64,000 bases of DNA from Alkalispirochaeta sp. (lineage in GTDB: Bacteria > Spirochaetota > Spirochaetia > DSM-27196 > Alkalispirochaetaceae), in NCBI GenBank assembly GCA_965601925.1, contig OZ271854.1:1216001-1280000 (forward strand). Direction: 5' to 3'. Under the pieces are notes generated by a model. It ran no database searches. It had not been told where the DNA came from and saw nothing but the letters and a program-made list of their open reading frames with translations. This document shows, one piece after another, positions 2,376 through 31,945 of the stretch. Each line of letters begins with the position of its first letter. Position 1 is the stretch's first letter. The position numbers were made by a program, and so were the translations under genes.

Positions 2376-2618
2376 TCGTCGTCTTTACCTGCGGATCGTC
2401 GTCGATGGACACCCACCGTCTCACCACGCAACGTCCGCTTCAATAGTAGCATCGCGGCCCGACGGTTCACAACAGAAGCCGTCGATCCCGCGCGCGCGAT
2501 CGTGTATCCGCACGGTACCGGCGACACGCAGTAATTTTGCATTCTCGATTTTGATCTACTACACTCCATAACGCCCCCGACCGGTTTCATCTATCCGACC
2601 GCGGGCCGGAACGATGCG

Positions 2619-4415
2619 ATGGACGACGGGATGCGAAAAACGATCCTCCTCGTCGAAGACGAGGCGATTATTGCCATGTACGAATCCAAACAACTGGAGG
2701 CGTACGGCTACAAAACGATACATGCCATGAAAGGCCACGAGGCGATACGCCTCGTTTTTGATAGCACCTTCGGCATCGATCTCGTCCTGATGGATATCGA
2801 TCTGGGTGAGGAAAAAGACGGAACGGAGATCGCCGCGGAGATACTGACCAGGATCGAAATTCCGATCGTGTTTCTTTCAAGCCATACCGAACCGAAAGTC
2901 GTTGAGAAGACCGAGAAGATCACGTCGTACGGATATGTCGTCAAGAACACCGATATTACCGTTCTCGATGCGTCCATCAAAATGGCGTTCAAACTGTTCG
3001 AGATAAAAAACGCGGATCGAAAAAAAGAGGAAGCGTTAAAAATAAGCGAGGAGAAGTATCGCGCCTTGGCCGACACATCACCCTACGGGATTCAAATGAC
3101 CGACGTCGACGGAACCATTACATTCGGCAACCCCGCGCTTCACCGTGTGTTGGAGTGTTCCGACGGCGAGCTGGTGGGCAAACGGATGTGGGACGTCACC
3201 GTCGACGCTGCGGGAAAGAGACGGTTGAAGCGGTATCACGAAAAGTTGGTGGCCGAGCGCCCCGGTCTCGCCACGTATTACGACACGATCCAGACGCACG
3301 CCGGATCGTCGGTTGCCGCGCAGATTAACTGGAGCTTCATCGATTCGCCGGATAATCGATCCCAAAACATCATCGGCGTCTTTACCGACGTTACCGATCT
3401 CAAACGCGCCGAGAGCGAGCTCAACGAAAAGAACGCGCGACTGACCGCCGCGCAGGAGATCGCCAAACTCGGTTGGTGGGAGTACGACATTGCGACGAAC
3501 GCGGTAACGTGGTCCGCCGAAATGTTCCAAATCTACGGAATCTCCGAGGACGAGGGACCCTTCCCGTTTGAGCGGCTTATGGAACTCGTGCATCCGGATT
3601 ACCGCTCCTACCATGGCAACCAAGTCGAGGTGTTGTTACGGGACGGTGAGGCGGACTTCGAGTATCCGGTGCTCAGGCCCGACGGCACGCTCCGATGGGT
3701 ACACGCCAAAGGAAAGCTCTCGTACGACGACGATGGAAATCCCGTCAAGATGTTCGGGATGCTACAAAACATCCATGTGCGCAAGACGGCGGAAGAGAGG
3801 ATACAATCGCTCCTCAATGAGAAAGAGCTCATTCTGAAGGAGGTTCACCACCGGGTGAAGAACAACATGGCGTCGATAGAGAATCTGCTCTCGTTGCAGT
3901 TGGAATCTCTTACCGACCCGGCAAGCATCTCGGTGCTTACAAAAGCGCTCGGCCGTGTCGCCGGCATGCGCATACTGTACGACAAGATATTGGTCTCCGA
4001 CGCCTACCAAGCCGTCTCGCTACGGGACTACCTCGGCGAGCTGGTCGAATCGCTCGTGACGTTGTTCGACGACTCGAGCAACGTCACACTCGACATGCGG
4101 GGCGACGACGTCGCGATTGCGTCGAAGAAGGTGTTCCCCCTCGGCATCATTATCAACGAGCTCGTCACGAATGCGATGAAACACGCTCCCGCCGCCGACC
4201 GACGCGGGGCGATCGTGATCACCGTAACGAGTGAACACGCCCGCGTGACGGTTACCGTGCACGACAACGGCCCGGGTCTCCCCGCCGGATTTGATATCGA
4301 CACATCCCGAGGTCTCGGATTACTGCTCGTCGGAATGTTGAGCCGGCAAATCGAAGGTGTCTTCGCACTCGAAAACGAGGGTGGCGCAAAGGCGACGATC
4401 GAGTTCAACCGGTAG
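2619..4415 (+). CDS. Hybrid sensor kinase: REC - PAS - PAS/PAC - HisKA_2/HATPase
   Basis: N-terminal receiver (ILLVEDE...VLMDIDL); two PAS domains; H-box LKEVHHRVKNNM; N-box NELVTNAMKHA; DNGPG and GLGL boxes. Start may be ATG 2631. Confidence 0.92.
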   Translation: MDDGMRKTILLVEDEAIIAMYESKQLEAYGYKTIHAMKGHEAIRLVFDSTFGIDLVLMDIDLGEEKDGTEIAAEILTRIEIPIVFLSSHTEPKVVEKTEKITSYGYVVKNTDITVLDASIKMAFKLFEIKNADRKKEEALKISEEKYRALADTSPYGIQMTDVDGTITFGNPALHRVLECSDGELVGKRMWDVTVDAAGKRRLKRYHEKLVAERPGLATYYDTIQTHAGSSVAAQINWSFIDSPDNRSQNIIGVFTDVTDLKRAESELNEKNARLTAAQEIAKLGWWEYDIATNAVTWSAEMFQIYGISEDEGPFPFERLMELVHPDYRSYHGNQVEVLLRDGEADFEYPVLRPDGTLRWVHAKGKLSYDDDGNPVKMFGMLQNIHVRKTAEERIQSLLNEKELILKEVHHRVKNNMASIENLLSLQLESLTDPASISVLTKALGRVAGMRILYDKILVSDAYQAVSLRDYLGELVESLVTLFDDSSNVTLDMRGDDVAIASKKVFPLGIIINELVTNAMKHAPAADRRGAIVITVTSEHARVTVTVHDNGPGLPAGFDIDTSRGLGLLLVGMLSRQIEGVFALENEGGAKATIEFNR

Positions 4416-18222: not shown

Positions 18223-18852
18223 TCACCCGTTGGCACGGAAAGGGCTCGGAGTCCAGTTGTACGCCGCGAGCCGGAGAGGGGACTCTCCTTCAGGGGTTAA
18301 GAACCCCGTCACGACGGTTAGGCTCGCCGGGGCCACCGGCGATAAACGGTGCGGTGGAGTCTCGAGAAGCCGGCTCACGGCGGCTCGAACGACGCCTCCG
18401 TGGGCGACGACGAGCAGCGTCTCCCCGTAGGCGACGTGCGGTCGGATTGCCGCCTCCACGCGATCGGAGAAGTCCCCCCAACTCTCACCCCCCGGCGGCG
18501 ATGCTTCGCCACGTCTCCACCGGTGGTAGATCGCCCCATGCCTCTCGATCAGCTCGGCTGTGGCCCGGCCGGTCCACTCGCCGACGTCGTTCTCTCGGAG
18601 AGCATCTTCTATCAACGGGGTGGAGTATCCTATCAACGCCGCGGTCTCTCGAGCTCGTTTTAGGGGCGAGCAGAGTACGATTCCGGGAGCGAGGCGCGCT
18701 ACGGTCGTCCGTACGGAGGACGCCTGCTCCCGACCCCGATCGGTCAAGTCTACGTCCCGCTGTCCGGCAAGGCGTCCGGAACGGTTCCACTCGCTCTCGC
18801 CGTGGCGCATGAGGATAATCGTAGACTGCGCCTCCCCTCCTCCGCGTCTCAC
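18223..18852 (-). CDS. Histidine phosphatase (phosphoglycerate-mutase-like) family protein
   Basis: LMRHGESEWN, SPLKRARETA, LRENDVGEWTG, GGES and VAHGGV motifs. Confidence 0.93.
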   Translation of the reverse strand: MRRGGGEAQSTIILMRHGESEWNRSGRLAGQRDVDLTDRGREQASSVRTTVARLAPGIVLCSPLKRARETAALIGYSTPLIEDALRENDVGEWTGRATAELIERHGAIYHRWRRGEASPPGGESWGDFSDRVEAAIRPHVAYGETLLVVAHGGVVRAAVSRLLETPPHRLSPVAPASLTVVTGFLTPEGESPLRLAAYNWTPSPFRANG

Positions 18853-19973
18853 GATTCGGTGCTCCCGCCGGCTGCATAAACTCGCGCCGGACGATCGGGA
18901 AACTCCAGAAAAAACGTGTCGCCGGAGCGCGCTTCCATCGCGTCGTCGGAGACGATGCTTATCCGTTTGTTTTCGTGCCAGACCGTTATGAGCGTCCTAT
19001 CGGCCACCGGCGTCGCCTCGACGAACTCCACCTCCATCTGGTCGGTTCGCTCCCCGTTCGAGCCGGCGGCACCGCCGGCTCCCGACGCTGCGGCACGCAA
19101 CTCCAAGTCGTGGGCGCGGTACATGAGTAGGCACCCTTCCCCTTCTGAGCGCCCCTGTGCCGGTCCGAAGTCGAGCGAACCCGAGCGGTAGCGCCCGTTA
19201 CGCACGGACGCGTTAAAAAGGTTGGCCGGAGGTGTACCGATAAACTGAGCGACAAAGGGTGTCTCCGGGTCGTCAAGGAGCGCCCGGGGCGCCCCGAACT
19301 GCTCGATGTTGCCGTCCTTCATGACGGCGATGTGGGTTGCCATGGTCATCGCTTCGACTTGATCGTGGGTTACATAGACGCTTGTCGACCCCGTCAGGCG
19401 GTGGATTCGCATGAGTTCGGTACGCATTTCCGCCCGCAGCTTGGCATCCAGATTCGAAAGCGGCTCATCGAAGAGGAGAACCTTCGGTTCCGGGGCGATG
19501 GTCCGGGCGATGGCGACCCGCTGCTGCTGCCCTCCGGATATCTCCCCGGGATAACGCCCCGCCAGTGGGAGAATACCGAGAAGATCCAGGACCTCCTTGA
19601 TCCGGGCTCGCCGCCGCCGGGCCGACCATCGTTTCACCTTGAGAGGCCATTCGACATTTGCCCATACCTTCATGTGAGGCCAGAGGGCGTAACTCTGAAA
19701 GACCATCCCCGTGTCGCGTTCCCCGGGTGGGACGACCGTCCCTTTCCTGCCGTCGGCTATGCGATGTCCCGCGAGGTAGATCTCACCGTCGGTCGGCTCC
19801 TCGAGACCCGCGAGCATCCTCAACGTGGTAGTCTTTCCACATCCCGAAGGGCCCAAAAGGGCGAGGAACGCGCCGGGGGGCACCTCGATATCGACGGCAG
19901 ATACGGCCTCCACCTCGCCGAATCGCTTCGTCACCCTATCGAGTCGTATCATCGCACGCTCTGCTTCGCTCAC
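18849..19973 (-). CDS. ABC transporter ATP-binding protein (FbpC/AfuC/PotA type)
   Basis: GPSGCGKTT, FQSYALWPH, ISGGQQQRV and DEPLSNLDAKLR motifs; GTG 19973 has an AAGGA SD. Confidence 0.92.
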   Translation of the reverse strand: MSEAERAMIRLDRVTKRFGEVEAVSAVDIEVPPGAFLALLGPSGCGKTTTLRMLAGLEEPTDGEIYLAGHRIADGRKGTVVPPGERDTGMVFQSYALWPHMKVWANVEWPLKVKRWSARRRRARIKEVLDLLGILPLAGRYPGEISGGQQQRVAIARTIAPEPKVLLFDEPLSNLDAKLRAEMRTELMRIHRLTGSTSVYVTHDQVEAMTMATHIAVMKDGNIEQFGAPRALLDDPETPFVAQFIGTPPANLFNASVRNGRYRSGSLDFGPAQGRSEGEGCLLMYRAHDLELRAAASGAGGAAGSNGERTDQMEVEFVEATPVADRTLITVWHENKRISIVSDDAMEARSGDTFFLEFPDRPARVYAAGGSTES

Positions 19974-20045
19974 TATTTCATCCTTTTTTGCGTTCCCCGT
20001 GCGGCCCGTGGTCTCAGCCCTCAAACCGCGTCCGGGACTACGGGG

Positions 20046-21827
20046 TTATGCGCTCTCGGCCCAGGGCTGGGTAGCTCCTTGGAGCCGGCGCGTCCAGAGG
20101 GTAACGACCACGGATATCGTCGCAATGATCACCGTAATGGCGTTGGCAAACTGGGCAAAGCCCTCGGAACTGTACTGAAAGGCGACGACGCTGAGGACCG
20201 AGTTTACCGGGGTCACCAGGAGGATGACCAGTGAGAGATCGCGAACGATCTTCACAAAGACCAGTACCGCCCCGGCAAAGAGCCCGCGCGCCGCCAAAGG
20301 CAGAACGATACCGACGAGGCGACGGAAGAGCCCGGCGCCGACTACTATCGCAGCCTCCTCGAGTTCCTCGGCTATCTGGCTGACCGTGGCCCGCCCCGCC
20401 TGAGCGGCAAAGGGGAGATTGTAAGCCGCCGCCGCAATGACGAGCAATGTAAAGGTGCCGTAGAGGGATGGGAACGGACCGATCGGACGACCGAACAGCG
20501 CAATGTATGCCGCCCCGAAGGCGATGCCGGGAATGAAGAAGGGGATATAACTAAAAGACTCTATGATTCTGTTTACGGCGCCACGCTTCTCTCGGGCTAC
20601 ATATCCGATGAGCAATCCGACGAGCGAGGCCGCCAACGCCACCGACAGGCCAAGGCCTATCGTATTGAATGCGGCGAACGCCACTTGGGGATTGCGCAGC
20701 ACCCCCTCCTGCCCCTGGGCGATCGACGGGTTCGCGCGACCGATCCAATAGTGGAGCGTCAGCCCCCCGGTAAAGGAGCCCGTGCGGCGCGTCAGGCTGG
20801 AGCCGATGAGCGCCAGCAGGGGCAACACGGTGGTAGCAAAGCAGATCGACCCCGATAGAAGAAGGAGCGGCCACTTGGCGGCTCCGAGGGCTTGTCGCTT
20901 TCGTCTTCCCGCTTTCCCGGTCAGGGTCGCAAAGGAGCGCCGCCCCCCTATCAGGCGCGTGTTGAACCACAGGAGGAGCGCGGCAATGAGGATCAAAATG
21001 ACGGTGAGTACAAATCCGCGCTCGGTCTGGCCGATGCGAATCATGCCGAAAATGCGCGTCGAGAGTACCTCAAAGCGCACCGGAAGGCCGAGGATAGCCG
21101 GTGCGGCAAAGTTGCTGACGCCGTTTCCAAAGGAGAGGAGAATCGAGGACATGACCGCCGGGGTAACGACCCGAAAGGTGATATCCTTCAGAACTCGAGC
21201 CTTACCGGCGCCGGTCATCGCCGCCGCCTCCAGGAGCTCGGAGTTTATCGATGCAAGGGCGGCGCTGATGAGCATGAAACCCAACGAGAAGTAGTGGATG
21301 CTCAGCACGATGGTAACCGGCACAAATCCCCAGGCGAGCCAGTCGGGCACGGCAAAGCCGAGTTCCTGGAAGAGGCCGACGCGCCCGCCGAGGCGGTCGT
21401 TCTGAAAGAGGGTTTGCCACGCCAGGGCGATCGCGAAGCTCGGAATGATGTAGGGAATCGACGCCAACGCGCCGATGATGCGGCGACCGGGCATGTCGGT
21501 CATTACCACCAGCCAGGCGAGAAGACCGCCGACAACGACGGTAAAAAGGGCGACGAGCGCCCCGACGGCAACGGTATTGCGAAGGGGCTCCCAAAGGAGG
21601 TTCGGCGCGAGACGCCCGCGGACGACGTCACTCCACGCCTCTCGCCCTTCGGATCCCAGGGTCGTAAGGAGCAGCCGCAGAAGGGGCGTTACGACCAGAA
21701 GTACCAAAAAGGCGAGGAGGATCAGGCGAATGATGTCGGCGGCAGCTACTCGCTTGAGGGAGAGATAGCGAGGGGAGTGTCCATGGTCGAGCGTCTCGTG
21801 CACGTCGGGGCCTTTCTCGGGACGCAA
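20046..21827 (-). CDS. ABC transporter permease, FbpB/AfuB type (two BPD_transp_1 domains)
   Basis: Two EAA loops (LLEAAAMTGA, LEEAAIVVGA); about 12 TM segments. Start uncertain (21827 or 21803). Confidence 0.9.
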   Translation of the reverse strand: MRPEKGPDVHETLDHGHSPRYLSLKRVAAADIIRLILLAFLVLLVVTPLLRLLLTTLGSEGREAWSDVVRGRLAPNLLWEPLRNTVAVGALVALFTVVVGGLLAWLVVMTDMPGRRIIGALASIPYIIPSFAIALAWQTLFQNDRLGGRVGLFQELGFAVPDWLAWGFVPVTIVLSIHYFSLGFMLISAALASINSELLEAAAMTGAGKARVLKDITFRVVTPAVMSSILLSFGNGVSNFAAPAILGLPVRFEVLSTRIFGMIRIGQTERGFVLTVILILIAALLLWFNTRLIGGRRSFATLTGKAGRRKRQALGAAKWPLLLLSGSICFATTVLPLLALIGSSLTRRTGSFTGGLTLHYWIGRANPSIAQGQEGVLRNPQVAFAAFNTIGLGLSVALAASLVGLLIGYVAREKRGAVNRIIESFSYIPFFIPGIAFGAAYIALFGRPIGPFPSLYGTFTLLVIAAAAYNLPFAAQAGRATVSQIAEELEEAAIVVGAGLFRRLVGIVLPLAARGLFAGAVLVFVKIVRDLSLVILLVTPVNSVLSVVAFQYSSEGFAQFANAITVIIATISVVVTLWTRRLQGATQPWAESA

Positions 21828-21902
21828 CGACGTCCCGTCGGACGGTGAAAAGAGGTAGAAGCGTAGGGCGCCTCCACCTCGTTACGCGGAATAGACCAAC
21901 AT

Positions 21903-23063
21903 CTACTTGAGCGAGAGAATCAAATCCGCCACGTCGTTGCGGATCGTCAACGTCTCTTCGGCATCGACGAACCACGCTCGGAACTCTTCCAGGGGAATCG
22001 CGTCGGGATGGGGCTCGATGTCGGTGCGTGTCGCGTAGTCGCCGGGGACGTAAAAGGGAGCGAATCCCGGACCGCCGTCGGGACTCTCGTCTCCCATGAT
22101 GAAATGGATGAAGAGCCGCGCGGCGGCGGGATTCCGGGCACCGTCAACGAGGCCGAGGGAGGCGGGGAAGTAGATGCCCGGCGACGGCTCGACGTCATTA
22201 GCTATCTGAAGCGCCCCCCCCTCTTCCTCGTTGTCCCGCCGGTCTGAGTATGACGTAAAACCGAGGGGAGGACTGCTCTGACCGACGGCACCCACGGCGG
22301 CGTTCACGTCGTCCGTGTCGCCGACGAGGATCAAATCATTGGCAAAGAGGTCGTGAATGAACTGCTCTCCGGCACTCGAAATGCCGTCGTCGAGGGCGAC
22401 GACCGAGCCGAAGTAATCCTCATAGGCCTCTTCCATGGCGTCGGATTGGAGGACGATCTCGGTCATGAGGTCGAGGTAGTCTCCGCGAATGAGGGGATCG
22501 ACCATGAGGACACGCCCCCGCCACTCGTCGGTGGTCAACGCCCAGAGGTTGTCTATCGGAGGGCCGGCGGGATGAGCCTCTTCATTGTACATCAGCACCT
22601 TCGTGGAGAGGCGGTTTGCCAACAGCGGATCCCGGAACTGCGTGGGTACCCGATCGGCAAACTGGGGCGGTATGTAACGCTCCAGGATACCTTCCTGAAC
22701 GAGCTCTCCGAAGACGACCGGCGCATCGGAGATATATGAGACGTCCGCTTGCACGTTTCGTGCCTGGTGTTCCGCCTGGAGACGGGCTATCTGCTCCGTC
22801 GAGGAGATATCAAAGCCGATGAGGTCGATTGCGGGGTACGCCTCCTCGAAAGCGGTCTCGACCCGGGCGATACGGCTGGTGAAGGAGTAGACGACTACCT
22901 CGCCCTCCTCCTCAGCGGCGGCGATAAGGGCGTCGAGATCCTCCCCGCTCAAGAGTACGTCGTCTTGGACGGCGGACGACGATCCATCCTCTTGCCCTCC
23001 TCCGGCAAAGCTGAGCGAGGTTACAATCACTCCGATAGCAATAGCGAACAACAGGTGTTTCAC
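21903..23063 (-). CDS. ABC substrate-binding protein, FbpA/AfuA (cluster D) type
   Basis: Signal ...SFAGGGQE; AAEEEGEVVVYS, LTTDEWRGRVLMVDP and ARNPAAARLFIHF motifs; SD AGGAGG. Confidence 0.88.
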   Translation of the reverse strand: MKHLLFAIAIGVIVTSLSFAGGGQEDGSSSAVQDDVLLSGEDLDALIAAAEEEGEVVVYSFTSRIARVETAFEEAYPAIDLIGFDISSTEQIARLQAEHQARNVQADVSYISDAPVVFGELVQEGILERYIPPQFADRVPTQFRDPLLANRLSTKVLMYNEEAHPAGPPIDNLWALTTDEWRGRVLMVDPLIRGDYLDLMTEIVLQSDAMEEAYEDYFGSVVALDDGISSAGEQFIHDLFANDLILVGDTDDVNAAVGAVGQSSPPLGFTSYSDRRDNEEEGGALQIANDVEPSPGIYFPASLGLVDGARNPAAARLFIHFIMGDESPDGGPGFAPFYVPGDYATRTDIEPHPDAIPLEEFRAWFVDAEETLTIRNDVADLILSLK

Positions 23064-23426
23064 GGTCTCCTCCTAAGAAAACTTCATATGGTTAACGGCA
23101 TTCGGCGGATTAAAAGCACATAAGTATTAGATTTGTATGAAAAATTATGCACCATGAATCCTCAGTCGCCGTCGAAAGGTGGATTGCCGCGAGGATTGAC
23201 CGGCGCCGGACACCCAGGCGAGACGGATTGTAAGACGGGAACCGCATCGGCCTCCTCCAACTTCGTCGTCCATGGCGTGGGCGAACACCGCAGCGCTATG
23301 AGTCCGTGCGGTGTGAGACCTGTGTGTGAACGCATATCTCGCGCGAGATGGGCTTGATCGACTCAGTGCAATCCGGCGGCGGCCCGCAAGGTTGCGCGGC
23401 TTCGCTCACGGAGCGTTACGACCGAT

Positions 23427-23783
23427 CTATCGGTACTGATTCAGTTCGGTTTCCCATTCGTGATAGTCACTTACAAGAATCCGAAACGTTTCACCGTGTG
23501 TGTTCGTGACTTCGAGAACGGAGTCCTGACGCCCGTGTTTTCCTTGTGCGATCGTTGCAATCTGGTCGAGCCTCCAGAGAAAGCCCAAGTCTTTTTTTTC
23601 CACCAGGCGCTTGTTGAGGAGGTTGACGATAAGCCCCATTCCCTTGACTCCCACCTTATGCGACTCCAGGCGTAGGTGTGTGGGTGTGAGAGACAGCCGT
23701 CCGGGGTATGCGACCATCTTCGTCTTCAGGTGCATCACCTTCTCTTCTCGGATAACGGTTTCATTCATCGATGGTTCGTCCAT
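23427..23783 (-). CDS. Small PH/GRAM-like domain protein (118 aa)
   Basis: ATG 23783 with AAGGA SD; GRLSLTPTHLRLESH...RLDQIATI...LEVTNTHGETFRILV...WETELN matches the pattern of bacterial PH/GRAM folds. Fold call is an inference. Confidence 0.65.
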   Translation of the reverse strand: MDEPSMNETVIREEKVMHLKTKMVAYPGRLSLTPTHLRLESHKVGVKGMGLIVNLLNKRLVEKKDLGFLWRLDQIATIAQGKHGRQDSVLEVTNTHGETFRILVSDYHEWETELNQYR

Positions 23784-23994
23784 AACTGATCCGTCCTTTT
23801 TATACGTTGTTGCTTCGTATTTCACCGGATGACGCGGTTCAGTTTCATGGTAACCGCAACTATCCTCCCAGTACAGGCTTCTCATGACGCACGAGACACA
23901 ATAGCCGACTTCGGTACCGGAACGGAACGCGCCGGGCGGTTCGTGACGCCTCAGTGCTACTGACCGTCTCGTTTCGAAACGGACGGGGAAACAC

Positions 23995-24023
23995 TTGACC
24001 GCGCTGCCGATTACGCATATATA
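23995..24023 (+). promoter_or_regulatory. Putative sigma70 promoter of the attenuated ABC operon
   Basis: TTGACC (23995-24000) - 17 bp - TATATA (24018-24023); predicted +1 coincides with the uORF ATG at 24030. Confidence 0.55.
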
Positions 24024-24029
24024 CATACT

Positions 24030-24107
24030 ATGATATCAATTCTTACCGCGCTACAGCCGACGAACTCGTGTGTCGTAGTCGTCTCTCCCGGGAGAGTAGT
24101 GGGGTAA
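24030..24107 (+). CDS. Putative attenuator leader peptide, 25 aa (MISILTALQPTNSCVVVVSPGRVVG)
   Basis: ATG 24030 to TAA 24105-24107; six Val codons, four of them consecutive; the stop overlaps the antiterminator strand. Confidence 0.65.
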   Translation: MISILTALQPTNSCVVVVSPGRVVG

Positions 24108-24131
24108 GGTCTATTCCGGTTTGCACAATGC

Positions 24132-24162
24132 GCCCGCGGGACCTGACCCGCGGGCTTTTTTT
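24132..24162 (+). terminator. Intrinsic terminator (attenuator) in the 5' leader of the ABC operon
   Basis: Perfect 9-bp stem GCCCGCGGG/CCCGCGGGC, 6-nt loop and T7 tract, 45 nt upstream of the ATPase start. Confidence 0.88.
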
Positions 24163-24207
24163 ATACCCGCGAGTCGTCCACGGTCGCCGGCCTAAGAGGA
24201 GGAGCGT

Positions 24208-25323
24208 ATGGAACCGATCGTCCACGTCCGGGGACTCACCAAGCACTTTCGAATCAAGACAAAGGAACCGGGATTCGCTGCAAGCGTGCGAAGCGTCGTG
24301 CGCCCGACCTACCGCACGGTGAAGGCGGTGCAAGGAATCGATTTTGCCATTCAACCCGGAGAGGTTCTCGCCTTTATCGGCCCCAACGGTGCGGGCAAGT
24401 CGACGACGATCAAACTCATCACCGGTATTCTCCACCCCGACGGCGGTACGGTCACCGTGCTGGGACTGGATCCGCATAAGGCGCGTAAAGCCCTTGCATA
24501 CCGCATCGGAACCGTCTTCGGCCAAAAAAGCCAGCTCTGGTTCCACCTTCCCCCGACCGATTCGTTTCATCTTCTCGGGACGATCTACGATATGAGCCCC
24601 ATCGAGACGCGAAAGCGCATGGACTTTCTCATCGAAGTCTTCGAGCTCCGCGAGTTCATGGATCAACCGGTGCGCAAGCTCTCTTTGGGCCAAAGAATAC
24701 GGTGCGAGATGGCGGCATCGCTCATCCACCGACCGCAGATACTCTTTCTCGACGAACCGAGCATCGGGCTGGACGTGGTCGTCAAACAGCGTATCCGCGA
24801 CCTCATCGGTCGCATCAATACGGAGGAGGGCGTGACGATCTTTCTTACCTCCCACGACGCAGGCGACATCGAGAAGATCTGTCGGCGTGCCATGGTCATC
24901 AACCACGGTGGAATCGTCTGGGACGGGACGGTCAAGGCGATGAAGTACTCGCTCCTTAACAAGCGTATCGTCGACGTAAAGATGGACGGCCCGGCGCGAG
25001 TCGAAATATCGGGAGTTACCGAACTCAAGCGGAAGGAGCACTCCCTCAAACTCGAGGTTGACCTCTCGGTCGCGTCCACTGAGACGGTTATATCGGCGTT
25101 AATGCGTCAGTCGAGTATTCGCGACATCACGATCTCCTCCACACCCATGGAGGAGGTCATCGCTCACATCTACGAGCGGAGCGCGAAGGGGGCGGTGGAA
25201 GATTCGACGGCTCGTGGGAGCGGTGAGTCCACCTACGGCGTCGGCGGTGGGCCGCGTGCGCCCCGGTCCGATGTCGATACGACGAAGGAAAACAGCACCG
25301 GAGGTTCCCATGGCGCTCCGTAA
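24208..25323 (+). CDS. ABC-2 type exporter ATP-binding protein (DrrA-like)
   Basis: GPNGAGKST, FGQKSQLW, LSLGQRIR, DEPSIGLD and TSHD motifs; strong SD GAGGAGG. Confidence 0.93.
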   Translation: MEPIVHVRGLTKHFRIKTKEPGFAASVRSVVRPTYRTVKAVQGIDFAIQPGEVLAFIGPNGAGKSTTIKLITGILHPDGGTVTVLGLDPHKARKALAYRIGTVFGQKSQLWFHLPPTDSFHLLGTIYDMSPIETRKRMDFLIEVFELREFMDQPVRKLSLGQRIRCEMAASLIHRPQILFLDEPSIGLDVVVKQRIRDLIGRINTEEGVTIFLTSHDAGDIEKICRRAMVINHGGIVWDGTVKAMKYSLLNKRIVDVKMDGPARVEISGVTELKRKEHSLKLEVDLSVASTETVISALMRQSSIRDITISSTPMEEVIAHIYERSAKGAVEDSTARGSGESTYGVGGGPRAPRSDVDTTKENSTGGSHGAP

Positions 25324-26098
25324 ATACGCGACGATCTTCGCGGTGGCGAGCCGCGATCAATGGATCTATCTCCCGGCCTTTTTGGCGCGTAACATCTTTT
25401 TCGTGATCATCCTCTTCATCTTCTTCTCCCTGTGGCGCGTTATCTTCCGCGAGGAGAACACGATTGCCCAGTTCACGATGACGCAACTGCTGTGGTATCT
25501 CACCTTCACTGAGGCGATAGAACTCTCCCAGACGCGCATCTTCGCGCCCATATCCGAAGAAGTGAAGGACGGTACCGTCGCCTACTCCCTCGGAAGACCG
25601 TACTCCTACGTGCTGTACTGGATCAGCCGCGCCATGGGAGAGAATCTCGTCAAAGCGCTGCCGCTTTTGGTGGTGGGTGCCGTTGTCGCCACGCTCATGG
25701 TCGGGCCCCTCCCGGGCTATTTTCGGGCGTTGCCTTTCGCGCTCGTCACGATCATGGGCGGCATTCTCATCGGGACGACGCTTCAAACGATCATCGGCCT
25801 TCTGGCCTTTCGATTCGAGGAGGTGATGCCCTTTTGGTGGATCATCCAGAAGCTGATCTTCGTAATCGGTGGGCTGTTCATCCCGATCGACCTTTACCCG
25901 CCGCGGCTTGCGCGCATCGCACGATTGACGCCGTTCTCGTTCGCCGCGTACTGGCCCGCCTCGACGTGGGTCGACTTCAGTTGGGGACGCCTCATGACGA
26001 CCGTCGCCGGCCAAGCGTTCTACGTCGGTCTCTTCGCATTGATCGCGGCACTGCTCTTTCGCTCCGGCGTCCGCTCGCTTCACGTACAGGGAGGATAA
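25310..26098 (+). CDS. ABC-2 family permease (ABC2_membrane_6/DUF990-like)
   Basis: ATG 25310 after GGAGG; about 6 TM segments; ISEEVKDGTVAYSLGRP motif. Confidence 0.85.
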   Translation: MALRKYATIFAVASRDQWIYLPAFLARNIFFVIILFIFFSLWRVIFREENTIAQFTMTQLLWYLTFTEAIELSQTRIFAPISEEVKDGTVAYSLGRPYSYVLYWISRAMGENLVKALPLLVVGAVVATLMVGPLPGYFRALPFALVTIMGGILIGTTLQTIIGLLAFRFEEVMPFWWIIQKLIFVIGGLFIPIDLYPPRLARIARLTPFSFAAYWPASTWVDFSWGRLMTTVAGQAFYVGLFALIAALLFRSGVRSLHVQGG

Positions 26099-26099
26099 C

Positions 26100-26918
26100 A
26101 TGCATGGAATCGACGGTCCGCGCCCGCGCCGAGGCGGAATGGCGAGGTTGGCGCTCCACTATTTTCGATTCAATCTCAGCGCCAACATGGCCTACTCGAC
26201 GAGTTTTCTCGTCCAGGTCTTCGGAATGGCTCTCAACAACGGTGCATTCATCATTTTCTGGTTGGTACTCTTCGAGCGAATCGGCGGCGATATTGCCGGC
26301 TACGGCTTTCAGGAGGTGATGTTTCTATGGTCTCTCGCCGCCGCGGGATTCGGCCTGAGTGTCGTCGTCTTCGGTAACACCCACCAGCTGTCGCGGATCA
26401 TTTACTCCGGCGAGCTCGACGTCTATCTCCTGCAGCCCAAGCCGATCCCCCCCAATGTGCTCATGAGCCGGATGGTCGTCGCCGGTTGGGGCGATCTCCT
26501 CTACGGCGCCGTACTCTTCGTCGCCACTCAGCCGATTACGCCGCGAGGCGTGGTTCTCTTCACACTCTTCTGTGTACTCATGACGTTGGTGGTGACGGCG
26601 GTGCGCGTCTTCTATCACTGCCTTACGTTCTACGCGGGTAACGCCGAAGGGTTTGCCGGCCTCGCCGGCGAGATGGTCATCAGTTTTATGCTGTATCCTG
26701 GCTCGATCTTTCGCGGCCCCGCCTCCTGGGTCCTGCACTCCCTCATCCCGGCGGCTCTCGTCGCCTACATTCCGGCGCGGATCTTTCAGGAGTTCGATCT
26801 TACGTTGCTTCTTGTCGTTCTCGCGGCCGACGCGGCCATCATCGCAGTCGCACTGGTGATGTTCCGCCTCGGCCTCAGGCGCTACGAGAGCGGCAACCTC
26901 ATCGGTACGCGCATGTAA
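26100..26918 (+). CDS. ABC-2 family permease (ABC2_membrane_6/DUF990-like)
   Basis: About 6 TM segments; IYSGELDVYLLQPKP, YPGSIF and GLRRYESG motifs. Confidence 0.87.
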   Translation: MHGIDGPRPRRGGMARLALHYFRFNLSANMAYSTSFLVQVFGMALNNGAFIIFWLVLFERIGGDIAGYGFQEVMFLWSLAAAGFGLSVVVFGNTHQLSRIIYSGELDVYLLQPKPIPPNVLMSRMVVAGWGDLLYGAVLFVATQPITPRGVVLFTLFCVLMTLVVTAVRVFYHCLTFYAGNAEGFAGLAGEMVISFMLYPGSIFRGPASWVLHSLIPAALVAYIPARIFQEFDLTLLLVVLAADAAIIAVALVMFRLGLRRYESGNLIGTRM

Positions 26919-27024
26919 TAGAGGCACGCCGGAACGGCTCGACGCGCACAGTCCGGTGGAACCGGAGTCGAGTCCGCCGATCGAGGGAAGCGAGGGTACG
27001 GTCGTATCGCGTACGATAGACGCC

Positions 27025-27468
27025 TCACCGTCGTCGCGTTACGCGCCGCTTATCCCGATGATAGGTCAACGCCGCAGCGACCAGCTCTCGTATCTCAGCT
27101 ACCGGGAGCGTGTCGTCGACGCCGAAAAGGACGCCTCGATTTCCGTCGTAGACAAAACGGTCGGCGTGCTGATCACGAAAGGTCGGGATGAGGGTCGTTC
27201 GGCAGTGCACGTAGAGGCCGTACCGATCGTGCGAGGCGGCGGGGCGTCCGATTCGTACCGTCGTGCCGACCCGTGATCTCATCGGTAGATAGCTCGGCTC
27301 GCCCCACTTGAGTGTCTCCCTTAGCCCGCCGACTTCCGGTATGCCCGAGGCCACGTCGAACAAGAGCCCACGGAGCGACAAGAGCCGAGCCCCGATCTCG
27401 CCGGGATACGCGGCGAAGACCGCCGCTACGGCCGACTCCTGAAAGGCGATCGCTCCCGAACCGCTCAC
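27025..27468 (-). CDS. DUF1801 (YdhG-like) domain protein
   Basis: VFAAYP...LRETLKWGEPSY...GTTVRI...HCRTTLI...ALTYH. GTG 27468 has a GGAG SD; the ORF track extends to 27510. Confidence 0.85.
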   Translation of the reverse strand: MSGSGAIAFQESAVAAVFAAYPGEIGARLLSLRGLLFDVASGIPEVGGLRETLKWGEPSYLPMRSRVGTTVRIGRPAASHDRYGLYVHCRTTLIPTFRDQHADRFVYDGNRGVLFGVDDTLPVAEIRELVAAALTYHRDKRRVTRRR

Positions 27469-27901
27469 CGATACAACTCCGGCGGGCATATCGAAGGGAG
27501 TGTTGTCCAAGTCGGCGGCGTCTTCGACGCACGCCTCGATGTCGGCAATACGGCACTACCGCGCGTGATGCCGCTGTGACTCTCTTGCGTGCGATTCATC
27601 GATCTTCCTACTCCCTGATATATATAATACAGCCGCCGCCCTGCGGCGGGTTTGATATAATGTGCGCACCGTTCCGAAGGCGACCCGCTTCGGCCGGCGG
27701 ATACGCTACGTTTCGTGCCGCGGATGAGCCATCCGATATTCGTATCGGATTCGGTCGACGAGGCGTGGAGACTGGGTGCGCTCCTCGTCGAGAGCTGACA
27801 CCGCTTGCGCCATGCACCGTGCGTGAGGCAACGATACCGCCGGGCGACAAATCGTTCGGGCCCAGGGTCGCGGCGTCGGTACTGGGCGCGCCCGATGCTA
27901 T

Positions 27902-29158
27902 TTACGGCCGAATATCGGAGCCCAACGGGTCGTCGATAACCGCTTCCGTCACCATTGCAATCGCCCCTCGAGTGCAGGCGTTGTCCAGAGCGGACACCTC
28001 TACCGCCACGTGCTCATGCGGTCCGACCATCGCCTCACGATTTACGTTGGCGTCGAGCCGATCGACGAAGTACGGGGCGATGGTACGCAACACGCCGCCG
28101 ATAATCACCTTGTCGGGATTGAAGATATTGATCAAATTCGTCACGCCTACGGCCATCTTCGCGCCGACATCCCCCATCATCGCGATCGTCGTGGGATCGC
28201 CGGCTTTGCAAGCGGCCGCGACCATATCGAGTGTCAGTGTGTCGCTGCGGCCACCGCATAACTCGTAGAGCGCGGAGGTATGGTGACGATCGGCCTCCGC
28301 GCGAGCGCGATTGAGGATGACAATCGGCCCGATCTCGGTCTGCCAGCAGCCGCGGCGTCCGCACCGACACCGGTCGCGGGCACCGGTCACCGCCATATGC
28401 CCGATCTCACCGGAGTATCCGGTACGACCGTGAAGGAGATTGCCGTCGACAAAGATACCTCCGCCTATACCGAACTCGCTGGATTCGATATAGACGAAGT
28501 TATCGACACCCTGTCCGACTCCGAAGTATCGCTCGCCCAGAGCGGCTGAGGCGGCGTCGTTGGCCAAGTGGAGCGGATAGGGAAACCGTTGCGCCATCCG
28601 ACGGCCTATCGGTACGGAACGCCACTGCAGATTGGGGGAGAAGGATATGACGCCGTCGTGCACGTCGATCAGACCGGACAGCCCCATACCGATGCCCAGA
28701 ATGGGGAGACGCCTCGCCCGTGCGCGCTTCACGGCCTCGTCGGTCAGCGCCTCTACCAGAGATAGCACGGACTCGACCGCCGGATCGTCAAAATAGACGC
28801 GCTCGCCCCACAGGAGGCCACCCTGAAAATCCGTAAGCCGCGCCGACACGAAGCTGTCTTTGAGCTCGATACCGATACACGCACCGCCGACGGGATTCAG
28901 ATCCAACTCGACGCCCGGCCTGCCGCCGGCGGACCGCCTCACACCGACCTCACGAATCAGACGGCGACGGCTGAGTTTGTCGACGATATTCGTGATCGTG
29001 CCGCGGGTGCTCCCCAAGCGAGCGGCGAGTTCGGCGCGAGTCGTGCCCGGACGCTCCCGGAGGTGTCTCACGATAAGCGAGGCGTTCCGCCGTTGCATCG
29101 CTCCGTGATCTATCGCTCCACCCGGCGTCACTATCGTGTCCTCACGCGGCTGCCGCAC
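27902..29158 (-). CDS. ROK-family transcriptional repressor (XylR/NagC-like)
   Basis: N-terminal wHTH (TRAELAARLG...GGRP); NDAASAALGE; GEIGHM...CRCGRRGCW motifs. Confidence 0.93.
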   Translation of the reverse strand: MRQPREDTIVTPGGAIDHGAMQRRNASLIVRHLRERPGTTRAELAARLGSTRGTITNIVDKLSRRRLIREVGVRRSAGGRPGVELDLNPVGGACIGIELKDSFVSARLTDFQGGLLWGERVYFDDPAVESVLSLVEALTDEAVKRARARRLPILGIGMGLSGLIDVHDGVISFSPNLQWRSVPIGRRMAQRFPYPLHLANDAASAALGERYFGVGQGVDNFVYIESSEFGIGGGIFVDGNLLHGRTGYSGEIGHMAVTGARDRCRCGRRGCWQTEIGPIVILNRARAEADRHHTSALYELCGGRSDTLTLDMVAAACKAGDPTTIAMMGDVGAKMAVGVTNLINIFNPDKVIIGGVLRTIAPYFVDRLDANVNREAMVGPHEHVAVEVSALDNACTRGAIAMVTEAVIDDPLGSDIRP

Positions 29159-30305
29159 CGGTACGCTCGAGACCGATAAAGATGCCGAGCGCGAGGACCG
29201 GCACTATGAGCACGGCGACGGGAAGTACCGTCTCGAGACCGTGGAGATCGGAGAGTCCTCCGACGAGGACGGGGAAGCTCAGGATGGCCGTTCCGGAGGC
29301 CATCACGATCCGCGCGCTCGCCGCCTGTTCGCGTAGCGGCACCTCCTTGAGTCCACACTCGAGCGCAACCGGGTAGAGATTGGCGATCCCGAGTCCGATC
29401 AACAGCGCACTCCCGCGCAACAGAGGAATCGTCCGTGCGCTATATACACCGCCGATACCGGCAAAAAAGAGCAGGAGCGCCGCAAAAAACAGTGCGCGCG
29501 CCGATACGACTTTGAGGAGGACGCTCCCGGCCGCACGCCCGGCGAACATACCCACCAGGACGAGGCCGACGACCGCCGCGGAACGGGCGCCGCTCAATGA
29601 GAACGCAGAGCGCAGATAGTCCGGTCCCCAAAAGAGGATGCAGAACTCGACGCCGACGACGAGAAAGACGACCGTCCACCGCAACCAAAAACGCGCACCG
29701 AATGAGACGCGTACCCGCCGTTCTCCGGCGTCTATATCGGGAATCGATACGGAACGCGGAAACACGAGGCGCAACGTAAGCCACACGATACCGGCGACCC
29801 ACAGAGCGGCGCGCCATCCCACGCTTCTGCCGGCAAAAAAGGATACGAGAAACGGCGCGACGATTGAGCACCCGCTTGCGACAAAGTTCGCCTCCGTCAG
29901 CGCCCGCAGACGTCGTTCGGGGTGGTGATTCGTCAGCGCAACGGGAATCAGGGAAAACGTCACCGAACCGAGAGTACCCATTGCGAGCGCAGAGGCGACG
30001 GTAACCGGCGCCGAGCGTCCGGAGGCGAGGCCGAAACAGCCCGCGACGATACCGACGCTACCCATCCAGAAGACTCGCTGCGCGCCAAAACGCCGGGCTA
30101 TCCGCTCACCGAAGGCTCCGGCCACGACCGTACCGGCCGCAAAGGCGCTGAAGTGAAAGCTGCCGACCGTATAGGAGAGTCCCAACTCGTCGCGGAGGAA
30201 CGGTGTGACCGGTCCGAGAATATTCAACGCATAGGCGTAAAATCCCAGCATTGCATAGTTGAGCCACGTGATGCGATCGCGCCGAAACTGCGTAGCGGTA
30301 GTCAC
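29142..30305 (-). CDS. MFS transporter
   Basis: About 12 hydrophobic segments; GERIARRFG loop motif; overlaps both neighbours. Confidence 0.88.
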   Translation of the reverse strand: MTTATQFRRDRITWLNYAMLGFYAYALNILGPVTPFLRDELGLSYTVGSFHFSAFAAGTVVAGAFGERIARRFGAQRVFWMGSVGIVAGCFGLASGRSAPVTVASALAMGTLGSVTFSLIPVALTNHHPERRLRALTEANFVASGCSIVAPFLVSFFAGRSVGWRAALWVAGIVWLTLRLVFPRSVSIPDIDAGERRVRVSFGARFWLRWTVVFLVVGVEFCILFWGPDYLRSAFSLSGARSAAVVGLVLVGMFAGRAAGSVLLKVVSARALFFAALLLFFAGIGGVYSARTIPLLRGSALLIGLGIANLYPVALECGLKEVPLREQAASARIVMASGTAILSFPVLVGGLSDLHGLETVLPVAVLIVPVLALGIFIGLERTGAAAA

Positions 30306-31945
30306 GCGTGCATACCCGGGAACTCATCGATCAGAATCACACACCCCTCGTCGGCGCGCACGCGTATCGAAGAGCCGCACCGCTCGTCGCGGCGATCCAT
30401 ATGGGTCGAGATTGCCACGATTCCGGCACCCGGCAGCGCCACATCGACCGATGCAACGCCGAAGTTCAGCGCCACGATGATCCGACGCCGCTCGTCTTCC
30501 TGCTCGTAGACGAAGCAATCCTTGCAACTGCCGTGAATCGTACGATAGCCACCGGCGGCGAGCGGCTCGTAGTCGCGGCGGAAGTGGAGTAACTCGCGGG
30601 TAAGGCGGAGCAACGATCGCTCGTCCTCGAGCTGGTCTTCCACGTTGCACGCCGCCGTATCGCCCACCGGTAGCCACGGTTCGTCCGTAGAATCGGAAAA
30701 CCCGCCGGTCGGTGACGCATCCCACTGCATCGGCGTACGCGCCGGATCGCGGCTCAACTCGGGGATTGTCCGCGCCCACGGATCTTGCGCACGCGCGGCC
30801 GGGATCGGGACGTTGGTCATACCGATCTCATCGCCGTAGTAGATGAACGGCGTCCCTCGGAGCGTCAAAAGCAACATCATGGCGACGCGCGCTTGACCGT
30901 CACCCACGTGCGATGCGATGCGCGGCTTGTCGTGGTTGCCCAACACGTAATTGGGCTGTGCAAAGTCGGGTAGCGCCTCCTCGTAGCGCTCCACGAACTC
31001 ACGCACCGTCGAGGCGTCCCACGGCATCCCGATCAGGTTGAAGTTGAACGGGAGATGGACGATGGGGTCCGCCGCGGTTCCGTAGTGGCCGGCGAGGACC
31101 GATAAAGGCGTCGAATACTCGAACTCGCCGATGAGCACCACATCGTCGAACGCATCGGTGGTCTCGCGAATCTCGGTAAGGAGCTCGTGCAATCCCGGTT
31201 GATTGGTGGTGTAGATGTGATCCATGTCGTCCCACGGAAAGTGAACGCTCCCGTCGAGTTTTCGGTGTGCCGACGGGGTCGTTCGCGCCGGCTCGTCGCG
31301 CCACAGTTCATCCTTGAGGAGAAATCCGATCATATCGACGCGAAATCCGTCGACGCCGCGCTCCAACCAAAAGCGCAGAACATCGTGCATCGCACGCCGC
31401 GTCGCCTCATTGCGCCAATTGAGATCCGGCTGATTGGGCGTGAAGGTCGCCAAGAAGTACTGCTCGGTACGCTCGTCCCACACCCACGCCGACTCACCGG
31501 TACTGATGCACAACCAGTTGGTAGGGGGCGATCCGTCGGGTTTGGCGTCCTTCCAGATGTACCGGTCGCGGAACGGATTCTCCCGATCGGAGCGCGACTC
31601 GAGAAACCAACGGTGTTGGTCGGAGGTGTGGTTCGGCACGAAATCGAGAATGATTTTCATGTCTCGCCGATGGGCCTGAGATACCAACTCGTCAAAGTCG
31701 GCAAGGGAACCGAACACCGGATCGATATCGCAATAGTCCGCCACGTCGTAGCCGAAGTCGACCATCGGAGAGGTAAAGATCGGCGAAAGCCAGACACCGC
31801 CGACACCGAGCCACCGGAGGTAGTCCAACCTCCGTACTACACCCGAAAGATCGCCCACTCCGTCACCGTTCGTATCCTGAAACGACCGCGGATAGATCTG
31901 ATAGATCGCCTCGCGTCTCCACCACTCTCTCGTACGGTTCATCAC
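30302..31945 (-). CDS. GH13 alpha-glucosidase (oligo-1,6-glucosidase/maltase-like)
   Basis: YQIYPRSFQD, DFVPNHTS, QPDLNW, DGFRVD, IGE, GNHD and SRDPARTPMQW motifs. Confidence 0.93.
   Translation of the reverse strand: MMNRTREWWRREAIYQIYPRSFQDTNGDGVGDLSGVVRRLDYLRWLGVGGVWLSPIFTSPMVDFGYDVADYCDIDPVFGSLADFDELVSQAHRRDMKIILDFVPNHTSDQHRWFLESRSDRENPFRDRYIWKDAKPDGSPPTNWLCISTGESAWVWDERTEQYFLATFTPNQPDLNWRNEATRRAMHDVLRFWLERGVDGFRVDMIGFLLKDELWRDEPARTTPSAHRKLDGSVHFPWDDMDHIYTTNQPGLHELLTEIRETTDAFDDVVLIGEFEYSTPLSVLAGHYGTAADPIVHLPFNFNLIGMPWDASTVREFVERYEEALPDFAQPNYVLGNHDKPRIASHVGDGQARVAMMLLLTLRGTPFIYYGDEIGMTNVPIPAARAQDPWARTIPELSRDPARTPMQWDASPTGGFSDSTDEPWLPVGDTAACNVEDQLEDERSLLRLTRELLHFRRDYEPLAAGGYRTIHGSCKDCFVYEQEDERRRIIVALNFGVASVDVALPGAGIVAISTHMDRRDERCGSSIRVRADEGCVILIDEFPGMHA

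What the first reader, a model, noticed from the sequence alone, without database searches (positions are those of the whole stretch)
23995..26918. Complete leader-peptide attenuator with a Val-rich, leaderless uORF controlling an ABC-2 exporter
Seen, in order: promoter TTGACC-17-TATATA; uORF 24030-24107 MISILTALQPTNSCVVVVSPGRVVG; helix 1:2 CTTACCGCGCTAC (24042-54) with GTAGTGGGGTAAG (24096-108), 12 of 13 pairs; alternative helix 2:3 GGGTAAGGTC (24102-11) with GACCTGACCC (24140-49), 9 of 10 pairs, invading the terminator; terminator 3:4 (24132-55) plus T7; then an ATPase and two DUF990-like permeases. Known: this is the classical attenuator layout, Val runs typify ilvL/ivbL leaders of branched-chain amino-acid biosynthesis, and uORF attenuators also induce antibiotic-resistance genes. 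Inference: ribosome stalling, through Val-tRNA shortage, an aminoacyl-tRNA synthetase inhibitor or a ribosome-targeting drug, switches on an exporter of unknown substrate. I do not know of an ilv-like leader on this exporter family, or of a leaderless one in spirochaetes.
Basis: partly seen in the sequence, partly recalled or inferred. Interest (0 to 1): 0.8.

Follow-up and report, generated by a model that had tools for sequence, protein, structure and literature searches.

The report
Valine-sensing attenuator on orphan ABC exporter
A tiny upstream gene enriched in particular valine, isoleucine and leucine codons sits before an ABC pump of unknown cargo in many spirochaetes and likely switches the pump on when these amino acids run short, which would tie this pump family, preceded elsewhere by RNA switches of the starvation-alarmone type, to amino-acid stress.

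Summary
The anatomy is real: a 25-codon uORF, a 9-bp terminator with T7, then an ABC ATPase and two PF06182 (EVE/DUF990) permeases. Of 35 spirochaete orthologue loci, 23 carry the same layout despite divergent sequence; a promoter-anchored script alone found 17, each with its stop 19-30 nt before the terminator. The leaders select codons, not peptides: GUC 40 vs 21.9 expected, AUU 27 vs 9.1, CUA 13 vs 1.1, GUG 6 vs 26.6. AUU and CUA are the codons used by this genome's cimA and leuA attenuators. Best reading (0.7): a multivalent, Val-centred branched-chain amino-acid attenuator, ilvL-like, on a transporter rather than a biosynthetic operon. Other orthologues carry ykkC-type RNAs instead, matching the published ppGpp riboswitches on this operon type, whose link to starvation the authors could not explain. 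Unexplained extra: 18 of 19 leader promoters lack the -7T. Against: no expression data, the window's antiterminator is not above chance on its own, covariation is not significant, and the cargo is unknown. New variant of a known mechanism; interest 0.65.

The parts
23995..24000 (+). predicted -35 element TTGACC
   Evidence: a TTG-type -35 lies at the same place in 21 of 23 leaders
24018..24023 (+). predicted -10 element TATATA, lacking the -7T
   Evidence: T at this position in 1 of 19 TA-type leader promoters vs 83% of 98 comparable promoters of the genome
24030..24107 (+). 25-codon leader uORF, predicted leaderless (ATG 6 nt after the -10, no SD); AUU at codon 4, CUA at codon 8, GUC at 15, 17, 18
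   Evidence: conserved layout
24042..24054 (+). segment 1, predicted to pair with 24096-24108 when no ribosome is present
24072..24083 (+). predicted main regulatory codons GUC GUA GUC GUC
24096..24112 (+). segment 2, spanning the uORF stop; predicted antiterminator strand pairing with 24139-24149
24132..24162 (+). intrinsic terminator, 9-bp G+C stem plus T7
24197..24204 (+). Shine-Dalgarno sequence of the ATPase gene
   Evidence: sequence
24208..25323 (+). ABC ATPase, 371 aa, catalytic motifs intact; best NCBIfam hit drrA, below its cut-off
25310..26098 (+). permease 1, PF06182 (DUF990); predicted ABC-2 (type V) fold
26100..26918 (+). permease 2, PF06182 (DUF990); true start may be slightly downstream, since most homologues align from residue 5-20

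Best explanation
This is a conserved uORF-terminator leader in front of an EVE/DUF990-type ABC operon that likely works as a multivalent, valine-centred branched-chain amino-acid attenuator: a ribosome would stall on GUC (also AUU, CUA) when charged tRNA is short, which is predicted to free segment 2 to block the terminator and let the pump genes be transcribed. With ample tRNA the ribosome would reach the stop, cover segment 2 and allow termination; without translation helix 1:2 would do much the same. Shown: anatomy, conservation, codon selection, pump family. Inferred: start site, translation, switching, trigger. For the cargo I commit to export of something that starves the Val/Ile/Leu synthetases (an amino-acid analogue or synthetase inhibitor, about 0.4; an excess sister amino acid or keto acid, about 0.25) over uptake (0.15) or cation/membrane stress (0.2); this step is inference only.
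For: (1) 23 of 35 distinct spirochaete loci have the layout: 17 by script (ATG 5-14 nt after the -10, stop 19-30 nt before the terminator), 5 added by hand, 1 recovered afterwards behind a group II intron, with 2 GUC and 2 AUU and a 24-nt gap. (2) In the 23-leader statistics set (17 + 5 + contig-end L089), GUC is 45 of 658 in-frame codons vs 12 of 1270 off-frame; in-frame beats both other frames in 18 leaders, ties in 4, loses in 1, and wins in 9 of 11 families. 22 of 23 have GUC, 21 AUU, 12 CUA. (3) Against each locus's own codon use (22 leaders): GUC 40 vs 21.9, GUG 6 vs 26.6, AUU 27 vs 9.1, CUA 13 vs 1.1, while the C-ending codons of Ala, Thr, Gly, Pro, Ser, Leu and Ile are all below expectation. 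(4) Internal controls: same-layout leaders precede trpE (UGG x3), leuA (CUA 4 of 7 Leu) and cimA (AUU 5 of 7 Ile); CUA is the control codon of the Salmonella leu attenuator (PMC1183508, passages). (5) Window antiterminator strength -13.3 kcal/mol with the ribosome on GUC, -5.9 at the stop, -9.4 with none; GUC beats no-ribosome by at least 2 kcal in 18 of 20 leaders with a core GUC. (6) Substitutions in two close pairs fall evenly on codon positions (3/2/3 and 6/6/7), so the peptide is not what is conserved. (7) ykkC-type RNAs replace the leader in 3 spirochaete and 4 Bacillota loci; ppGpp riboswitches are published on natA+COG3694+COG4587 operons and mainly on BCAA genes (PMC6003355). (8) Seven Bacillota uORFs use GUC for 17 of 18 Val and AUU for 21 of 21 Ile (six are close kin).
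Against: No expression, start-site or ribosome data. The window's antiterminator is no stronger than in shuffled spacers (z -0.02); across leaders 21 of 23 have z below 0 but only 10 reach p 0.05. Covariation on 6 sequences is not significant (antiterminator 292 of 500 shuffles as high, terminator 37 of 500). The GUC-vs-stop folding contrast is partly built in, since masking more RNA removes pairing; L079's terminator was mis-called. GUC is the commonest Val codon in this genome (42%), so it is not a rare codon. Several leaders have a single GUC and L078 has none. Five leaders were chosen by hand. In Streptomyces coelicolor, mutating the BCAA codons of the ilvB leader had no effect (PMC1262725, passages). 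In bmrB, rare codons set basal read-through and not drug sensing (PMC4191407, section 16). No Val-type leader was found before ilvB in 25 scannable loci (360 nt scanned) or before valS here, which is odd for a pure supply sensor. The ykkC-type RNAs are below the Guanidine-I gathering score and their ligand was not tested.
Confidence: 0.7

Rival explanations
1. General translation-stress sensor like B. subtilis bmrB: any drug that slows ribosomes on the uORF opens the terminator, and the odd codons only tune basal read-through.
For: bmrB-bmrCD is a precedent on an ABC exporter (PMC4191407, abstract and section 16). A ribosome almost anywhere in the first 20 or so codons favours antitermination in most leaders. 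The family's one characterised member exports viologens (PMC5417439 table).
Against: GUC is not rare here yet is selected against the leader-wide fall of C-ending codons, and GUG is avoided. The three enriched codons belong to one biosynthetic family, and two match the leuA and cimA leaders. The alternative switch on these operons is of the ppGpp type.
Confidence: 0.17
2. Nascent-peptide sensing: the hydrophobic beta-branched stretch stalls the ribosome together with a ligand, as in TnaC or ErmCL (recalled).
For: Val, Ile and Leu make up 76 of 184 residues at positions -13 to -6; 10 of 23 peptides end in Gly.
Against: No conserved peptide motif; substitutions not skewed to third positions; synonymous codon choice is strongly biased.
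Confidence: 0.05
3. Translation-independent RNA switch (riboswitch or protein-bound leader); the uORF is incidental.
For: Without a ribosome the 5' part folds as a three-way junction closed by helix 1:2.
Against: No Rfam match in the window or at gathering score in the 8 leader-bearing spirochaete loci among the 20 scanned (L009 gave only the intron); no conserved aptamer-like sequence in the 5' half; GUC enrichment is frame-specific.
Confidence: 0.04
4. Non-classical ilvB-type leader as in S. coelicolor: BCAA codons are present but do not control read-through.
For: Published negative result for that leader (PMC1262725); weak antiterminator statistics.
Against: Codon selection and fixed stop-to-terminator distance over 11 families need a selective cause.
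Confidence: 0.04

Closest known systems
Enterobacterial ilvL (ilvGMEDA) and ivbL (ilvBN) attenuators
   Same: Short uORF with Val/Ile/Leu control codons, alternative helices, intrinsic terminator; multivalent control (PMC3783181 passages; PMC1183508 passages).
   Different: Controls a transporter, not biosynthesis; mostly SD-less uORF (21 of 23); in the window the antiterminator takes the terminator loop and 3' arm start; no Rfam match.
ykkC subtype 2a (ppGpp) riboswitches on natA + COG3694 + COG4587 operons (PMC6003355)
   Same: Same operon type (COG-to-PF06182 mapping recalled; ykkC-type RNAs seen directly before orthologous ATPases); ON switch by antitermination under starvation.
   Different: The sensor here is a translated uORF, specific for three amino acids, not an aptamer; the window has no ykkC match.
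B. subtilis bmrB-bmrCD (PMC4191407)
   Same: uORF attenuator controlling an ABC exporter.
   Different: Different transporter family; responds to ribosome drugs; codon identity not needed for sensing; terminator lies inside bmrB.
Ethyl viologen exporter (EVE/DUF990) family, TCDB 3.A.1.141, EvrABC of Synechocystis (PMC5417439 table)
   Same: One ATPase plus two PF06182 permeases, no substrate-binding protein; 52% identity to an Acaryochloris ATPase.
   Different: Natural substrate unknown; no leader-peptide control found in my searches; not compared with EvrABC itself.
Actinobacterial ilvB leader peptides (PMC1262725)
   Same: Short ILV-rich ORFs with terminators outside Proteobacteria.
   Different: There the ORF overlaps the terminator and codon changes had no effect in S. 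coelicolor; the target is biosynthetic.

Membership tests
Classical amino-acid leader-peptide attenuator (ilvL/ivbL type) | short uORF at the 5' end of the transcript | tested here: met
   start site inferred from the promoter only
Classical amino-acid leader-peptide attenuator (ilvL/ivbL type) | selected control codons of one amino-acid family | tested here: met
Classical amino-acid leader-peptide attenuator (ilvL/ivbL type) | intrinsic terminator a fixed short distance after the stop | tested here: met
   19-30 nt in 17 scripted cases
Classical amino-acid leader-peptide attenuator (ilvL/ivbL type) | antiterminator exclusive with the terminator and freed by stalling | tested here: inconclusive
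   direction right; window alone at chance, 10 of 23 significant; covariation not significant
Classical amino-acid leader-peptide attenuator (ilvL/ivbL type) | downstream genes make or activate the sensed amino acid | tested here: not met
   ABC ATPase and two permeases only, variable neighbours
Classical amino-acid leader-peptide attenuator (ilvL/ivbL type) | read-through depends on the cognate charged tRNA | not testable with these tools
   needs reporters
ykkC/ppGpp riboswitch | ykkC aptamer core in the leader | tested here: not met
   no match in the window by Rfam or by model R1
Antibiotic-sensing uORF attenuator (bmrB type) | induction by ribosome-targeting drugs, independent of codon identity | not testable with these tools
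   codon selection argues against
EVE/DUF990 ABC family (TCDB 3.A.1.141) | ATPase plus two PF06182 permeases, no binding protein | tested here: met
EVE/DUF990 ABC family (TCDB 3.A.1.141) | ABC-2 (type V) membrane fold | tested here: met
   model pLDDT 90.5; nearest folds Wzm, TarG, ABCG2, TM about 0.5-0.63, best E 1e-3
EVE/DUF990 ABC family (TCDB 3.A.1.141) | direct orthology to Synechocystis EvrABC; viologen export | not tested
   EvrABC sequences not held; only an Acaryochloris ATPase at 52%

The most novel reading that the evidence does not exclude
The EVE/DUF990 pumps are a widespread defence against whatever uncharges Val-, Ile- and Leu-tRNA (amino-acid mimics, synthetase inhibitors or an excess sister amino acid). 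Lineages have wired them repeatedly to the same alarm with interchangeable sensors: a GUC/AUU/CUA ribosome attenuator in Spirochaetia and some Bacillota, a ppGpp riboswitch in others. In spirochaetes a promoter deliberately lacking -7T adds a second, possibly CarD-dependent, gate.
Probability: 0.35. Interest if true: 0.82.

Novelty: new variant of a known kind. Interest (0 to 1): 0.65.

Why it matters
Sherlock et al. (PMC6003355) found ppGpp riboswitches on this operon type, stated that no link was established, and suggested membrane stress unrelated to the stringent response. A codon-specific Val/Ile/Leu attenuator on orthologous operons points instead to branched-chain amino-acid stress, the main ppGpp-riboswitch regulon. 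It gives a short list of candidate cargoes for a transporter family whose one characterised member in the papers I saw exports a synthetic viologen. It also shows an amino-acid attenuator on an exporter-fold pump and a set of short-leader attenuators (Trp, Leu, Ile, Val) in spirochaetes. All of this is testable with simple reporters.

Tried and rejected
Rfam: nothing at gathering score in the window, in 20 orthologue loci except a group II intron, or in 20 of 24 Bacillota loci, so no T-box was seen on these operons. Single-sequence fold of permease 2 was useless (pLDDT 44); no PDB sequence relative; no NCBIfam family for the permeases. Neighbour analysis of 20 spirochaete loci (26 of 70 neighbours scanned) gave no conserved partner, binding protein or acetyltransferase. 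An AT-rich motif before five Clostridia operons looks ykkC-like by pattern, but model R1 gave only E 0.49 for L028 and nothing for four others: unconfirmed. Eight spirochaete loci have no leader (L006, L007, L014, L017, L067, L020-22), one is cut by a contig end (L004); L067's ATPase is split by a Mutator-family IS. G659's ATPase is fragmentary, no leader found. The distant paralogues L011-13 and two Bacilli loci show no such leader. The 2:3 helix as evidence by itself was rejected. The ATPase tree is the quick tree only (L004, L067, L089, L093 left out). Paper searches found no report of a leader peptide on this family; the library lacks most subscription journals, including comparative attenuation surveys that I recall but could not read. 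Part 2 of the PMC6003355 supplement was not read. Earlier-findings look-ups were blank.
Full report
Observation. All elements are at the stated coordinates: TTGACC-17-TATATA, ATG 6 nt later at 24030, a 25-codon uORF ending at 24107, helix 1:2 (12 of 13 pairs), the alternative helix 24102-11/24140-49 (9 of 10), a 9-bp terminator with T7, a strong SD, an ATPase with intact motifs and two PF06182 permeases. The permease model (pLDDT 90.5) is nearest to Wzm, TarG and ABCG2, the ABC-2 fold (best E 1e-3). No Rfam family matches the leader. Relatives named are Spirochaetales/Spirochaetaceae. The operon was not found in 21 other genomes of the same family and its ATPase groups with family f6 (quick tree), so it may be a lateral gain; this was not tested further.

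Conservation. Genome searches gave 35 distinct spirochaete loci. A script requiring a terminator, a -35/-10 pair and an ATG found 17 uORFs of 22-41 codons, starting 5-14 nt after the -10 and stopping 19-30 nt before the hairpin. Five more were added by hand because the promoter or U-run rule failed or the promoter lay outside the scanned stretch (L008, L062, L066, L069, L078). One more appeared later upstream of a group II intron in G030. Three loci carry a ykkC-type RNA instead, one is truncated and eight have no leader. On the quick tree, 22 of the 26 ATPases in one clade (SH-aLRT 99) have the leader. Two of 23 leaders have an SD, so short-leader initiation is the rule but not absolute.

What is selected. 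The statistics set is 23 leaders (17 + 5 + contig-end L089). GUC makes up 45 of 658 in-frame codons against 12 of 1270 in the other frames; it wins in 18 leaders, ties in 4, loses in 1, and wins in 9 of 11 families (p 0.011 by family). Against each locus's own coding sequences (22 leaders) GUC is 40 vs 21.9 expected, GUG 6 vs 26.6 (core: 1 vs 15.2), AUU 27 vs 9.1 and CUA 13 vs 1.1, while the other C-ending codons tested fall below expectation. Part of the AUU and CUA excess may reflect relaxed third-position bias, but against the off-frame control they remain enriched (p 1e-5 and 0.016). Peptides share no motif, and changes in two close pairs fall evenly over codon positions. The held-out G030 leader has two GUC and two AUU. 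Kin are not independent, so the p values overstate.

Internal controls. A genome-wide scan gave 17 candidates; those with a clear amino-acid run and a strong terminator are this leader and leaders before trpE (three UGG), leuA (CUA for 4 of 7 Leu) and cimA (AUU for 5 of 7 Ile) (genes identified, trpE slightly under its cut-off). Two ilvB paralogues in relatives have AUU-rich leaders (L117, L120). So AUU and CUA are the control codons in this group, and CUA is the proven one in Salmonella leu (PMC1183508, passages). The window's uORF has AUU, CUA and three GUC. The main ilvB (25 scannable loci of 26, 360 nt each; own genome) and valS show no Val leader: the Val sensor sits on the pump.

Mechanism. 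With the ribosome masked on codons 15-18 the terminator segment is captured by segment 2 (-13.3 kcal/mol); at the stop this drops to -5.9; with no ribosome helix 1:2 competes (-9.4). Medians over 20 leaders are -11.8, -4.05 and -7.05. This is weaker than it looks: the window's antiterminator is at chance level against shuffled spacers (z -0.02), 21 of 23 leaders lean the right way and 10 are individually significant, and six aligned sequences give no significant covariation. Many relatives use the textbook pairing with the 5' arm; the window, L002, L016 and L089 pair with the loop and 3' arm start.

The second sensor. L010 and L019 match Guanidine-I below gathering (E 1.1e-6 and 0.0011); L018 shares their motif but gave no Rfam hit. 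Four of 24 Bacillota loci (L131, L132, L143, L144) have the same core. By eye, L132 shares its 5' start, and L010/L018/L019/L131/L132 their 3' tail, with the validated Clostridium sp. BL8 natA ppGpp RNA (supplement part 1). PMC6003355 (passages) reports 12 of 105 ppGpp riboswitches before natA + COG3694 + COG4587 and 78 before BCAA genes, says no link was established, and suggests membrane stress. The COG-to-PF06182 mapping is recalled. Seven Bacillota loci have SD-led uORFs with GUC for 17 of 18 Val and AUU for 21 of 21 Ile (six are close kin); in L030 the antiterminator is predicted when the ribosome sits at codons 4-11, covering two GUC, is partial at 14-17 and is lost from codon 20. Sensor swapping among orthologues is a known theme (PMC2965389, passages).

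Cargo. The operon stands alone with variable neighbours and no binding protein. An exporter-fold pump induced by uncharged Val/Ile/Leu tRNA fits best with removal of the cause: an amino-acid mimic or synthetase inhibitor, or an excess sister amino acid or keto acid (BCAA imbalance; own knowledge). Uptake is not excluded.

Promoter oddity. Of 19 leader promoters with TA at the -10, one has the final T (two others were picked by that T and two had no -35 in range). The genome's TTGAC-17-TA promoters have it in 83% of 98; in five relatives TANNNT sites far exceed the reversed-pattern control while TANNNV sites do not, bar a slight excess in G023 (83 vs 76). The trpE, leuA and cimA leader promoters keep it. 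Promoters lacking -7T are CarD-activated in Rhodobacter (PMC7703639, abstract) and the genome has a short CarD-domain gene. This is a lead only; a misplaced -10 is the alternative.

Novelty. The mechanism is textbook. Its use on an EVE/DUF990 pump was not found in searches, which miss most subscription journals. It works like ilvL but is not filed as a member, since its target is not biosynthetic. The nearest uORF-exporter precedent, bmrB (PMC4191407, abstract and section 16), senses drugs without codon specificity; the S. coelicolor ilvB result (PMC1262725, passages) warns that BCAA codons need not be regulatory. PMC10687018 and PMC12452182 (passages) added nothing. Verdict: real; likely a Val-centred BCAA attenuator (0.7); new variant of a known kind; interest 0.65.

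Noticed in passing
window 23995-24023 and 18 orthologous leaders: The -10 element lacks the -7T in 18 of 19 leader promoters although most promoters in these genomes keep it; many have an extended -10 TG. Possible CarD or other activator dependence.
   Followed up: partly
G000:C1 4087567 (-), L096: Leu-rich short-leader attenuator (CUA x4) before leuA.
   Followed up: partly
G000:C1 2536532 (+), L098: GTG-initiated, apparently leaderless uORF with three Trp codons before trpE.
   Followed up: partly
G000:C1 3608164 (-), L097: Ile-rich (AUU) attenuator before cimA; already noted as e1-9052916.
   Followed up: partly
L167 about 2150-4125 (G030): A group II intron with RT lies between the attenuator and the ATPase; splicing would be needed to restore the operon mRNA.
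   Followed up: partly
L161 (G638): Mutator-family transposase inserted in the ATPase gene; no leader found.
   Followed up: partly
L028, L037, L038, L040, L041, L054 upstream of the ATPase: Conserved AT-rich RNA motif with terminator, ykkC-like by eye, not confirmed by covariance model; possibly a divergent ppGpp riboswitch.
   Followed up: partly
L029-L035 upstream of the ATPase (Lachnospiraceae): SD-led uORF with a five-segment attenuator, all Val as GUC in most and all Ile as AUU; leader peptides are unusual for amino-acid control in Bacillota.
   Followed up: partly
L117, L120: AUU-rich attenuators on second ilvB paralogues, while the main ilvB has none.
   Followed up: partly
window 24165-24170: A CCCGCG stretch just after the U run can pair with the terminator 3' arm; similar stretches in L002, L008, L065, L093.
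   Followed up: no
window 23427-24026 (-): Divergent 199-codon open frame that overlaps the promoter; the part from 23783 (118 aa) has no Pfam match.
   Followed up: no
G000:C1 1203364-1205946 (-), L013/L127: A second, distant EVE-like operon (38% ATPase identity) without this leader.
   Followed up: no
window 18223-31945: Flanking cluster of an ABC importer with binding protein, phosphoglycerate-mutase-like gene, ROK regulator, MFS and alpha-glucosidase-like gene (labels from reading the translations, not scanned); unrelated to the operon.
   Followed up: no
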